From assembly GCF_009914755.1 (NCBI RefSeq), contig NC_060947.1: a stretch of 64,000 nucleotides of DNA; one strand, 5' to 3'. Within the stretch, counting starts at the first letter, position 1, and each line of letters starts with the position of its first letter. Below are positions 52,120-54,560 of the stretch, in pieces. The translations under genes were made by a program, and so were the position numbers. Below the pieces are notes generated by a model. That model ran no database searches, was not told the DNA's origin, and saw nothing but the letters and a program-made list of their open reading frames with translations. Origin of the DNA: the human T2T-CHM13v2.0 reference genome, Homo sapiens.

Positions 52120-54560
52120 GCATCCACATGTGGAAAAAAAAACTCAATCTCAACCTCAAGCCTTAGACAAAACTCACAGTGGATCACAGATCTGAATGGA
52201 AAATGTAAGGCTACAACACTTTCAGAAGACATAGGGAGAGAATCTTTGTTACCCTGGGTTATGCAAAGAGTTCAACAGCATGATCCAGAGAAAGGAAACA
52301 AATGGTAAATTGAACTTGATCAAAATTTAAAAATTTTGCTTTGTGAAAAACATAGTCAGGAGACTGAAAAGACAAGCAACAGACTGGGAAAACACATTTG
52401 CAAGTTACATATCCAATAAAAGTGTTGTATCCAGAATATATATGTAGAACATTCAAAACTAAACATTAAGAAAATAAACAATTCAAGTAAAAAAAAAAAA
52501 AGAAGAAGAATAGGGGTCAGGCAAGCTCAGTGGCTCACGCTTGTAATCCCAGTGCTTTGGGAGTCTAAGGCTGGAGGACTGTTCAAGACCAGGAATGTGA
52601 GACAAGCCTGGGCAACATAGTGAGACTCTATACCTACCAAAAAATTTAGTTTGGTGTGGTGGCACACACCTATACTCCTAGCTATTTGGGAGGCTGAGGT
52701 TGGAGGATCGCTTGAGCCCAGGAGGTCAAGGTTACAGTGATCTATGATCACACTATTGTGAAACCGCCTTTGCAAAATTATGACAGACAGTGAAAGAAAT
52801 CTAACTTAACCGAATCCATCTTGCTTCTAACCTTCAAGCTGTCCTTGTTCATTGCTGGGCATAGGCTGAACTAATTTTGGGAGAAACTTAGTTTATAGTT
52901 TATGGTTTAAACAAAGACGGTAACACCCCTTTCCCAAAGTGACCTCCTTCCTGCCTGGGGACTAGACTTCCTTTGTAGGACTAACATTAGCCACAAGATC
53001 AGATGAGCCAGTTTATTGATCTGGTGGTGCCAGCTGATCCATCAAGTGCAGTACTGATACCCCAAGCACTGATTTTAGGAGCAGTTTAGGGAGGGTCAGA
53101 ATTTTGTAGCCTCCAGCTGCATAACTCCTAAACCATATTTTTTTTTTTTTTGAGGCGAAGTCTTTTTCTGTCACTCAGGCTGGAGTGCAGTGGTGAGAAC
53201 TCAGCTCACTGCAACCTCCGCCTCCTGGGTTCCAGTGATTCTCCTGCCTCAGCCTCCCGAGTAGCTGGGATTACAGGTATGTGCCACAACACCTGGCTAA
53301 TTTTTGTATCCTTAGTAGAGACAGAGTTTCACCATGTTGGCCAGGCTGGTCTCGAACTCCTGACCTTAAGTGATCTTCCCACCTTGGCCTCCCAAAGTGC
53401 TGGGATTACAGGCATGAGCCACCGTGCCCGACCCTAAACCGTAATTTCTACTACAAAGGCAATCTAGTCCCCAAGCAGGAAGGAGGTCTGCTTTGGGAAA
53501 GGGCCATTATCGTCTTTGTTTAAACCATAAACTGTGAACTAAGTTTCTCCCAAAGTTAGTTCAGCCTCTGCCCAGGAATGAACAAAGACAGCTTGGAGGT
53601 TAGAAGCAAGATGGACTCGGTTAAGTTAGATCTCTTTCACTGTCTCAGTCATAATTTTGCAAAGGTGGTTTCAATTGCATTCTAGCATGGGTGACATAGT
53701 AAGACTCTATCTTCAAAAGAAAAAAAAGGTAGGTAAAATATTTAACAGATATTTTACCAAGAAAGATAAATGGACGGCAAATAAGGACACAAAAAGATGC
53801 TCAGCATCATTAGCCTTTAGGGAAATGCAAATTAAAACCACAATTTGTACTACATAACTGTTGGGGTGACAATGAAAAATATTTGCAATACCAAATGCTG
53901 GAAAGGTTGTGGAACAAACGGACCTCTCATGCATTACTGCTGAGATTGCAAAATGGTATATTAACTCTGCAAAACCGCGTGACAGTTTCTTCAACAGTTA
54001 AACATAACATATAACTACCAGATATACAGCTATTCTACTCCTAGATAGTTACCCTAGATAAATAAAACTTATGTTGACACAAAAACCTATATGCAAATGT
54101 TTGTAGTAGCTCTATTTACAAACTCCTCAAGCGGGAAACAACTCAATTGTCCTTTAATGGGGGAATGGATAAATAAACTGTGATATAACGATACAATGGA
54201 ATACTACTCAACAATAAAATGGAACATATTAGTGATACACACAACATGGGTAAATCTCAAAGACATTATGCTAAGGAGCAAGTCCAAAAATACTACACAG
54301 TGTATGGTTCCAATTATGTCACATTCTGGAAGAGGCAAAACTATAAGGGAGAGAGGAGAAGATCAATATACCAGGGATTAGAAAAGAAGAGGATGTGATT
54401 ACAAAGGAATTTAAAAGGGAGTTTTCTGGAGTGATACAACCATTGCGTATTCTGATTGTGGTGGTGGTTATACAAATCTACACATGTGTTACAACTCATA
54501 GCACTGTAGGCTAAAAAATGTTAAGTTTATTACATACTGATGTAAGCATTTTTTAAATAA
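52120..54560 (+). mobile_element. L1M 3' region hosting AluJ (52519-53727), which hosts the LTR8 fold-back unit
   Basis: L1 text resumes in register after the Alu (aaagatgctcagcatcattagcctttagggaaatgcaaattaaaacc). Confidence 0.8.
52759..53673. mobile_element. LTR8-derived inverted (fold-back) unit with 4-bp TSD ATTG; contains AluS (53138-53432, minus)
   Basis: Starts TGAAACCGCCTTTGCAAAATTATGAC and ends with its near reverse complement GTCATAATTTTGCAAAGGTGGTTTCA; ATTG at 52755-52758 and 53674-53677. Confidence 0.85.

What the first reader, a model, noticed from the sequence alone, without database searches (positions are those of the whole stretch)
52755..53677. Fold-back LTR8 mini-element: two U3 ends facing outward with one exact 4-bp TSD
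Seen: the unit starts with the LTR8 5' end (TGAAACCGCCTTTGCAAAATTATGAC) and ends with the reverse complement of the same end. The two arms pair over ~220 bp at roughly 90% identity by eye. No LTR 3' end is visible. Both outer ends are flanked by ATTG, and the host AluJ reads through continuously (cact-ATTG-cattctagc) once the unit is removed. Known: 4-bp TSDs and TG...CA termini typify class I (ERV1) integrase. From my memory of the LTR8 consensus, the arm junction GCCACAAGATCAGA (52990-53003) matches a short sequence present twice in inverted orientation within LTR8. Inference: a snap-back or template switch at that inverted microhomology produced a cDNA with two U3 attachment ends, which integrase inserted as one TIR-like unit. 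It could be a one-off defective product or a member of an unrecognised non-autonomous family. Standard annotation would show it as two unrelated LTR8 fragments.
Basis: partly seen in the sequence, partly recalled or inferred. Interest (0 to 1): 0.8.

Follow-up and report, generated by a model that had tools for sequence, protein, structure and literature searches.

The report
Fold-back LTR8 insert, two U3 ends
An ancient retroviral LTR fragment near the OTC gene was inserted folded back on itself, so both ends are the same LTR end; it is a genuine but single-copy curiosity with no sign of function.

Summary
Window 52759-53673 is one insertion in an old Alu. It is flanked by an exact 4-bp duplication (ATTG) of the same four Alu positions.

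Against standard 691-bp LTR8 copies, the unit consists of:
- LTR8 positions 1-248 on the + strand;
- joined to LTR8 positions 405-1 on the - strand.

Both outer termini are therefore the U3 (5') end of the LTR. Positions 406-691 are absent from the whole window.

The join lies in a 14-nt stretch (10 nt perfect) that occurs twice in inverted orientation in standard LTR8. It is the best internal inverted repeat of the reference copy.

A younger Alu sits in the loop. The - copy also has a private 21-bp deletion at the inner edge of the stem.

Standard solo LTR8s carry 4-bp duplications, so the family's own integrase most likely inserted the unit.

The junction is unique in this genome: an exhaustive pattern search found only this copy and one false hit. 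The "non-autonomous family" idea is therefore not supported.

Whether the two arms were joined during reverse transcription or by end joining cannot be decided from sequence.

No function is indicated. The transcribed unit would fold into a ~220-bp hairpin.

The parts
52514..52758 (+). Host Alu, left part (old, diverged; subfamily not tested)
   Evidence: 74% identical to another Alu in a 236-column alignment spanning Alu positions 3-234. A local alignment runs to window 52758 = Alu position 249.
52755..52758 (.). Left copy of the 4-bp target-site duplication ATTG
   Evidence: corresponds to host Alu positions 246-249.
52759..53003 (+). LTR8 positions 1-248, + orientation (left arm; starts TGAAACC)
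   Evidence: 91% identity over 248 columns to reference copy L002; all 39 other scored genomic copies stop matching at query 241-246.
52990..53003 (.). Junction: 14-nt inverted microhomology GCCACAAGATCAGA, shared by both alignments
   Evidence: Overlap of the + and - alignments. The standard LTR has GCCACAAGATTAGA at 235-248 and the reverse complement of GCCACAAGATCAGA at 392-405.
52990..53137 (-). LTR8 positions 405 down to ~252, - orientation (the 'loop' of the fold-back)
   Evidence: third alignment (85% identity). Its last few columns run into the Alu poly-T and are spurious. Boundary read.
53138..53433 (-). Younger Alu inserted into the - LTR8 copy. Its own ~9-11-bp TSD is cctaaaccata at 53127-53137 and cctaaaccgta at 53433-53443.
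   Evidence: (poly-T at 53138-53151; Alu-Alu repeats D1, I2-I4).
53434..53450 (-). LTR8 positions ~261 down to 245, - orientation
   Evidence: the reverse complement reads TAGAAATTACGGTTTAG, as in the standard copies.
53450..53451 (.). Site of a private 21-bp deletion in the - copy (LTR8 positions 224-244). It lies between two TAG triplets and removes most of this copy's microhomology.
   Evidence: 0 of 29 standard copies share this deletion.
53451..53673 (-). LTR8 positions 223-1, - orientation (right arm; ends ...GGTTTCA)
   Evidence: 93% identity over 223 columns, no gaps.
53674..53677 (.). Right copy of the TSD ATTG
53674..53728 (+). Host Alu, right part with A-tail
   Evidence: 53676-53727 aligns to Alu positions 248-298.

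Best explanation
This is one integrase-mediated insertion of an aberrant, ~609-bp LTR8 (HUERS-P1, ERV1) DNA whose two ends were both the U3 end.

Shown by the sequence:
- The unit is LTR8 1-248 (+) joined to LTR8 405-1 (-).
- The join lies in a 14-nt (10 nt perfect) inverted complementarity between LTR positions 235-248 and 392-405.
- One exact 4-bp duplication of host Alu positions flanks the whole unit, the size that ordinary solo LTR8s make.
- The junction is single-copy in the genome.

Inferred:
- The join arose during reverse transcription. A plus-sense DNA begun at the polypurine-tract cut (LTR position 1) had reached position ~405. Its 3' end paired with positions 235-248 of the same or a second nascent plus strand and was extended to that strand's 5' end at position 1.
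- Mutual extension of two such strands would give a blunt duplex with a U3 terminus at each end.
- The U3 and U5 tips of LTR8 are 9/10 identical as inverted 10-mers, so integrase could treat a second U3 tip as a U5 tip and insert the unit.
- Later an Alu landed in the loop, and 21 bp were lost at the inner edge of the right arm.

The unit has no indicated function. As RNA it would form a ~220-bp hairpin.
For: Structure: one search gives the three alignments to a 691-bp copy, with nothing from 406-691 in the window; all 39 other scored copies break at the same point. In 38 of them the remainder is listed on the opposite strand. For the 39th (L010), one search finds it ~620 bp away, behind an insertion.

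Microhomology: it is visible in standard copies. In L002 it is the inverted pair with the longest perfect run (I3: 13 nt at 92%, 10 perfect). The 10-mer core is intact at site 1 in 19 of 29 copies, at site 2 in 13 of 29, and at both in 8 of 29.

Single event: both ATTG copies map to the same Alu positions 246-249.

Family TSD size, 19 copies with a complete 3' end:
- 10 have a perfect 4-bp TSD;
- 5 match at 3 of 4;
- 2 are 3' LTRs of proviruses;
- 2 are unclear.
Three more solos have perfect 4-bp TSDs.

Controls: the convergent LTR8 pairs in L041 and L032 are full-length LTRs. Three of the four have their own 4-bp TSD, and the fourth is the 3' LTR of a provirus.

Termini: TGAAACCGCC / GGCGGTTACA are 90% complementary (I5).

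Arms, same kind and age:
- They are 91.8% identical to each other; other pairs average 90.1%.
- The same copies rank near the top for both arms (L002, L004, L006, L020, L027).
- Private rare states number 10 (left) and 8 (right).
Against: - The arms are not each other's nearest relatives (rank 6 and 7 of 37).
- They share only 2 rare states. The control mean is 0.51, and 62 of 630 control pairs reach 2 or more. Common descent from one template molecule is therefore not shown. It is only compatible with a young, near-master source plus ~4% later decay per arm.
- The 36 comparison rows include at least one copy fetched twice (maximum pairwise identity 1.0), which inflates the control tail.
- A pure intramolecular snap-back gives a hairpin with one duplex end, not two. 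A second strand or a second step has to be assumed.
- The - copy now lacks its own microhomology (21-bp deletion). I treat this as a later loss, but it is an unexplained coincidence.
- No orthologous empty or filled site could be examined.
Confidence: 0.6

Rival explanations
1. Two-donor integration followed by repair. Integrase inserted the U3 ends of two separate viral DNA molecules, or of two short incomplete ones, 4 bp apart. The cell then joined the free viral arms by microhomology-mediated end joining at the 10-14-nt inverted match, discarding the rest.
For: - It gives the same final structure, TSD and microhomology.
- The arms need not have been identical at insertion, which fits their lack of a sister relationship.
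- PMC13427564 (passages read) states that microhomology at proviral breakpoints can reflect either template switching during reverse transcription or end joining.
- In-vitro integration assays use model LTR-end oligonucleotides (PMC11054761, passage read).
Against: - It needs loss of kilobases from both donors, or two very short donors, yet ends precisely at the best inverted match of the LTR.
- It requires more steps than one mispriming event.
- Nothing in the sequence excludes it.
Confidence: 0.22
2. Post-integration host rearrangement. An ordinary LTR8 or provirus, or two independent LTR8 insertions, was reshaped by inversion, deletion or replication fold-back. The ATTG repeat is then chance.
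For: - Inverted repeats provoke rearrangements.
- The 21-bp deletion shows that the locus did change after insertion.
- Convergent independent LTR8 pairs do exist (L041, L032).
Against: - An ordinary insertion has a U5 end on one side, whereas here both host junctions are exactly LTR position 1.
- The host Alu is colinear, not inverted, and resumes on the same four bases.
- A host fold-back would have to stop exactly at LTR position 1 and rejoin exactly after the TSD.
- Independent neighbouring LTR8s keep their own TSDs and their full length.
Confidence: 0.07
3. It is a member of an unrecognised non-autonomous, TIR-like family mobilised repeatedly by ERV1 integrase.
For: The unit has integrase-competent tips at both ends and a TSD.
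Against: - Junction search with 106 bp: 1 of 40 scored candidates (1402 first-look candidates) spans the junction, and that is the window itself.
- Exhaustive 26-nt junction pattern with up to 3 mismatches: 2 matches genome-wide. One is the window. The other is an ordinary full-length LTR, positions 1-689 colinear.
- The unit has no primer-binding site or polypurine tract, so it could not be reverse-transcribed again. This last point is an inference.
Confidence: 0.02

Closest known systems
Ordinary solo LTR8 / HUERS-P1 (ERV1) insertions
   Same: Sequence is 91-93% identical to standard copies. Termini are TG...CA. The TSD is 4 bp.
   Different: Positions 406-691, including the U5 end, are missing. 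A second, inverted U3 segment takes their place, so both attachment ends are U3.
L1 'twin priming' inversions (inverted, truncated L1 flanked by one TSD; abstract of PMC2837659 seen in the listing)
   Same: A retroelement insertion made of two inverted segments of the same element under a single TSD. It is produced by a second priming event during reverse transcription.
   Different: L1 uses target-primed reverse transcription, has long variable TSDs and a poly(A) tail. Here the marks are those of retroviral integrase: a 4-bp TSD, TG/CA tips and no poly(A).
Defective exogenous proviruses with internal deletions or inversions at microhomologies (HTLV-1c: 1.9% with an inversion; 4-10-bp microhomology at 58 of 185 deletion junctions; PMC13427564, passages read)
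   Same: Rearranged retroviral DNA with short microhomology at the breakpoint. The same two candidate mechanisms are discussed.
   Different: As far as the passages I read show, those rearrangements (deletions, inversions, host-sequence chimeras) are internal to the provirus. Here one attachment end itself is replaced.
Integration reactions with two identical LTR ends in vitro (recalled from the integrase literature; only the general description of end-oligonucleotide assays was read in PMC11054761)
   Same: Integrase joining two copies of the same viral end to a target with the family-specific stagger.
   Different: Those are engineered substrates. This would be a natural germ-line fossil of such an event.
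Elements with inverted long repeats: DIRS retrotransposons (abstract of PMC3950715 in the listing), foldback elements and MITEs (recalled)
   Same: Long terminal inverted repeats, hairpin-forming.
   Different: Those are multi-copy families with their own recombinase or transposase. This is a single copy built from an ERV LTR.

Membership tests
LTR8 (LTR of HUERS-P1, ERV1) | Sequence homology to copies annotated as LTR8 | tested here: met
   Reference copy L002 aligns at 87-90% to the LTR in L042. That LTR contains both LTR8.THOLE primers and is split after ~450-460 bp by a ~300-bp insertion. PMC6862598 describes the same thing: LTR8, 691 bp, interrupted after 453 bp by an Alu. Both arms are 91-93% identical to L002.
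LTR8 (LTR of HUERS-P1, ERV1) | TG...CA termini and a 4-bp TSD | tested here: met
LTR8 (LTR of HUERS-P1, ERV1) | One colinear LTR running from the U3 start to the U5 end (~691 bp) | tested here: not met
   Only positions 1-248 (+) and 1-405 (-) are present. Positions 406-691 are absent from the window.
Multi-copy non-autonomous fold-back family | Further copies with the same junction at other loci | tested here: not met
   only the window's copy.
Recurrent class of U3-U3 LTR8 insertions (any junction) | Other convergent LTR8 pairs whose outer ends are both position 1, with truncated inner ends and one shared TSD | tested here: inconclusive
   Among 136 exact 5'-end matches, 2 convergent pairs lie within 5 kb. 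One is the window. The other is a chromosome-2 pair of two full-length solos, each with its own TSD. Of 812 ends with up to 2 mismatches, only 100 were listed, and a wide-gap pattern was not accepted. Of the 41 fetched loci scanned, 4 had hits on both strands, and none was a fold-back.
Cut-and-paste DNA transposon or MITE | TIRs and a TSD of a transposase superfamily; arms not derived from another repeat | tested here: not met
   The arms are LTR8 positions 1-248 and 1-223. ATTG is not a TTAA or TA type of TSD (the TSD rules are recalled).
Simple inversion inside one LTR between its inverted repeats | The + strand LTR resumes (392-691) after the inverted middle segment | tested here: not met
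   After the inverted segment the - copy continues to position 1. No 406-691 sequence is present.

The most novel reading that the evidence does not exclude
U3-U3 (and perhaps U5-U5) fold-back integrations are a recurrent but unannotated by-product of retroviral replication. They would be scattered through many ERV families and hidden as 'two unrelated LTR fragments'. This locus would be the first dated germ-line fossil showing that a retroviral integrase used two identical ends in vivo. Each such event would plant a ready-made long hairpin (dsRNA source) in the host genome.
Probability: 0.3. Interest if true: 0.6.

Novelty: new variant of a known kind. Interest (0 to 1): 0.45.

Why it matters
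The locus is a clean natural example of a retroviral insertion whose two attachment ends are the same LTR end, joined internally at a short inverted match. That bears on two points:
- how symmetric integrase's end recognition is in vivo;
- which aberrant reverse-transcription products can still reach the germ line.

It also shows a route by which a single insertion creates a long perfect-at-birth inverted repeat. Such structures can form hairpin RNA and can be unstable.

Eight literature searches turned up no description of such an ERV insertion. That library lacks most subscription journals, including the older retrovirology literature.

As a single decayed copy ~6.5 kb upstream of OTC exon 1, with no annotated function, its practical weight is small.

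Tried and rejected
- A gapped pattern meant to catch any outward-facing pair of LTR8 5' ends 150-6000 bp apart was rejected as 'bad gap'.
- The second junction-pattern hit (chromosome 7, 3 mismatches) proved to be an ordinary, more diverged full-length LTR.
- The chromosome-2 convergent pair (L041) and the pair in L032 proved to be independent full-length LTRs. Three have their own 4-bp TSD, and the - copy in L032 is the 3' LTR of a provirus.
- A BLAST of the right host flank against an Alu found nothing at the set threshold. A local pairwise alignment resolved it.
- The sister-arm test did not show a common template.
- No primate orthologues, RepeatMasker track or Dfam/Repbase library were available.
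- I built no consensus of the LTR. Site classes were scored by base frequencies among copies.
- Literature searches for U3-U3 or inverted-LTR insertions returned nothing relevant.

Full report
**What is there**

The region reads ...cacTATTG | TGAAACCGCC...GGTGGTTTCA | ATTGcattc.... The 26-nt opening sequence occurs only twice in the window, once on each strand, at the two ends of the unit. One copy has 0 mismatches and the other 1, and none is expected by chance. The repeat finder reports the arms as three collinear inverted pieces of 29, 155 and 53 nt, 83-93% complementary. A MAFFT alignment gives 91.8% identity over 220 positions.

**Which family**

A search of the window's own genome with 52759-53128 returned 39 other scored copies out of 2897 first-look candidates. 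Pairwise BLAST among 29 fetched copies puts the full element at about 691 bp, ending ...GGTTACA.

PMC6862598 (passages read) describes an LTR8 of 691 bp. RepeatMasker named it, and an antisense Alu interrupts it after 453 bp. The paper also prints primers for it. Both primers lie in locus L042, inside an LTR that aligns to my reference copy at positions 1-460 and 450-691 with a ~300-bp insertion between them. The name LTR8 therefore rests on a paper plus a tool result, not on memory. The Repbase review lists LTR8 as the LTR of HUERS-P1 in its table of LTR retrotransposons (PMC5753468, passages read). The ERV1 (class I) assignment comes from the finding and is recalled, not from the passages shown.

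**Anatomy against a standard copy** (numbering of L002 1501-2191)

The whole window contains three LTR8 segments and no others:
- positions 1-248 on the + strand at 52759-53003 (91%);
- positions 1-223 on the - strand at 53673-53451 (93%, ungapped);
- positions 248-405 on the - strand, ending at 52990 (85%).

Reading the sequence across the inserted Alu shows that the - strand pieces are one LTR copy, 1-405, with two changes:
- An Alu (53138-~53433, poly-T first) sits at LTR position ~252-262. Its own 9-11-bp duplication is cctaaaccata / cctaaaccgta.
- A 21-bp deletion (positions 224-244) lies between two TAG triplets. None of 29 standard copies shares it.

Nothing from positions 406-691 is present. 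The unit is thus [1-248 +][405-1 -], about 609 bp before the Alu arrived. Both termini are the U3 start.

The genome search shows the same thing from the other side:
- All 39 other scored copies stop matching the left arm at query 241-246.
- For 38 of them, the following 139 nt of the query are found on the opposite strand about 13 bp further on.
- For the 39th (L010), they are found ~620 bp away, behind an insertion.

**The junction**

The + and - alignments overlap by 14 nt at 52990-53003, GCCACAAGATCAGA. Standard copies carry GCCACAAGATTAGA at 235-248 and TCTGATCTTGTGGC at 392-405, which is the reverse complement of GCCACAAGATCAGA. The two sites match 13 of 14 with a perfect 10-mer.

In L002 this is the internal inverted pair with the longest perfect run. 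The others are 9 nt perfect or longer but only 75-79% matched. Among the 29 decayed copies, the 10-mer is still intact at site 1 in 19, at site 2 in 13, and at both in 8.

The window's junction carries the C of site 2. The crossover therefore lay within or before the 10-mer. A 10-14-nt match at a random junction is not a chance expectation, so the join was homology-guided.

**One insertion event**

The host is an old Alu. Its left flank aligns to another Alu up to window 52758 = Alu position 249 (...CACTATTG against ...CACCACTG). The right flank's local alignment starts at 53676 = Alu position 248. Carrying the two unaligned bases back, the right flank resumes at position 246. Both ATTG copies then stand for Alu positions 246-249, and the Alu is otherwise uninterrupted and colinear.

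Four base pairs is what this family makes. Of 19 copies with a complete 3' end:
- 10 have perfect 4-bp duplications;
- 5 match at 3 of 4;
- 2 are 3' LTRs preceded by a polypurine tract;
- 2 are unclear.

Three further solos have perfect 4-bp duplications. PMC11054761 gives the integrase range as 4-6 bp (passage read).

Ordinary neighbouring LTR8s in convergent orientation look different. Both pairs found (L041, L032) are full-length LTRs. Three of the four have their own duplication, and the fourth is the 3' LTR of a provirus.

**Are the arms of one kind and age?**

Both arms are 91-93% identical to the same standard copies. L002, L004, L006, L020 and L027 are in the top six of both lists. Scored by base frequency among 36 other rows, the columns fall as follows:

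| Class | Count |
|---|---|
| Rare state in the left arm only | 10 |
| Rare state in the right arm only | 8 |
| Rare state shared by both arms | 2 |
| Both arms rare but different | 1 |
| Other | 2 |

This is what two initially equal sequences of the family's typical age would show.

It is not positive proof of one template:
- The arms rank only 6th and 7th of 37 as each other's neighbours.
- Two shared rare states are reached by 62 of 630 control pairs.
- The comparison set contains at least one copy fetched twice.

If the arms were identical at insertion, 8.2% mismatch corresponds very roughly to 20-45 million years. The substitution rates behind this figure are recalled and the estimate is rough. 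It fits a family reported only from higher primates (PMC6862598) and a later Alu insertion.

**One-off or family?**

- A 106-bp query across the junction was spanned by only 1 of 40 scored candidates (1402 first-look candidates), the window itself. All others matched one half on each strand.
- The exhaustive pattern search with 26 nt across the junction and up to 3 mismatches found 2 places in 3.1 Gb. One is the window. The other is a chromosome-7 site that is an ordinary LTR, colinear over positions 1-689.
- There are 812 LTR8 5' ends within 2 mismatches (410 + and 402 -), of which only 100 were listed.
- Complete lists of the 136 exact ends contain two convergent pairs within 5 kb: this unit and the chromosome-2 pair of independent solos.

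The junction is unique. Whether other U3-U3 units with other junctions exist could not be settled with the tools at hand.

**How it most likely arose**

An ordinary LTR or provirus has one U3 and one U5 end, so no simple inversion or deletion of one yields position 1 at both host junctions with the host sequence colinear. I therefore take the unit to have been inserted as it is, by the family's integrase.

The tips make this easy. The U3 tip TGAAACCGCC and the inverted U5 tip are 9/10 identical (I5).

For the join, I favour mispriming during plus-strand synthesis. Plus strands start at the polypurine-tract cut. The 3' LTRs are preceded by ...AGGGAGGGAT, directly before LTR position 1. A strand that had reached position 405 ends in the complement of positions 235-248. 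Paired there with itself or with a second nascent plus strand, it would be extended to position 1.

If two strands prime each other, both run off at their 5' ends and give a blunt duplex with two U3 tips. These steps are inference.

The main rival is integration of U3 ends from two DNA molecules followed by microhomology-mediated end joining. It predicts the same sequence. PMC13427564 notes the same ambiguity for proviral breakpoints.

**What it does now**

Nothing indicates a function. The unit lies 1.8 kb downstream of the annotated enhancer (50814-50958) and 6.5 kb upstream of OTC exon 1 (60197). It sits inside the intron of the upstream OTC transcripts (hub annotation).

As + strand RNA, the 915 nt fold into one long hairpin. 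The minimum free energy is -508 kcal/mol against -262 +/- 7 for 20 shuffles, a z-score of -35.9. Inverted LTR pairs have been reported among host Z-RNA/dsRNA sources (PMC12711578, passages read). That is context, not evidence about this locus.

**Novelty**

Eight full-text searches produced no description of an endogenous retroviral insertion with two U3 ends. The library omits most subscription-journal papers, so older retrovirology work may hold precedents. I file the unit as a new variant of a known kind: an aberrant LTR8 integration. It is real, neatly interpretable, single-copy and without evident function.

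Noticed in passing
window 53450|53451: The - LTR8 copy lacks 21 bp (positions 224-244), flanked by TAG/TAG. The deletion removes most of its own copy of the junction microhomology, exactly at the inner edge of the hairpin stem. 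0 of 29 standard copies have it. It could be a later slippage at the stem base or part of the original event.
   Followed up: partly
L002:1878-1905 (LTR8 positions ~378-405); window 52990-53017 on the - strand: An AATAAA lies 8 nt upstream of the second microhomology site. The break at position 405 thus falls about where a poly(A) site (R/U5 border) could be expected. The R and U5 borders of LTR8 were not mapped here, and U5 would then be unusually long (~285 nt).
   Followed up: no
L002:1501-1510 and 2182-2191: The two tips of standard LTR8 are near-identical inverted 10-mers, TGAAACCGCC / GGCGGTTACA (I5).
   Followed up: partly
window 52514-52758 and 53138-53433: The host Alu (+) and the Alu inside the unit (-) are themselves inverted, 74-76% complementary over 47-118 nt (I2-I4, I6). 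This adds a second, weaker layer of inverted repeats around the LTR hairpin.
   Followed up: no
L041 (G000:C2:224200100-224204700) and L032: Convergent pairs of full-length LTR8s lie 1.1 kb and 0.35 kb apart. Both copies in L041 (GCAC, GAAG) and the + copy in L032 (GTAT) have their own 4-bp TSD, and the - copy in L032 is the 3' LTR of a provirus. They served as ordinary look-alikes and controls.
   Followed up: yes
window 50814-50958 and 60197: By the hub's annotation, the unit lies between the RefSeq OTC upstream enhancer and OTC exon 1, within the intron of the longer upstream OTC transcripts. If those are expressed, it would be transcribed as a hairpin.
   Followed up: no
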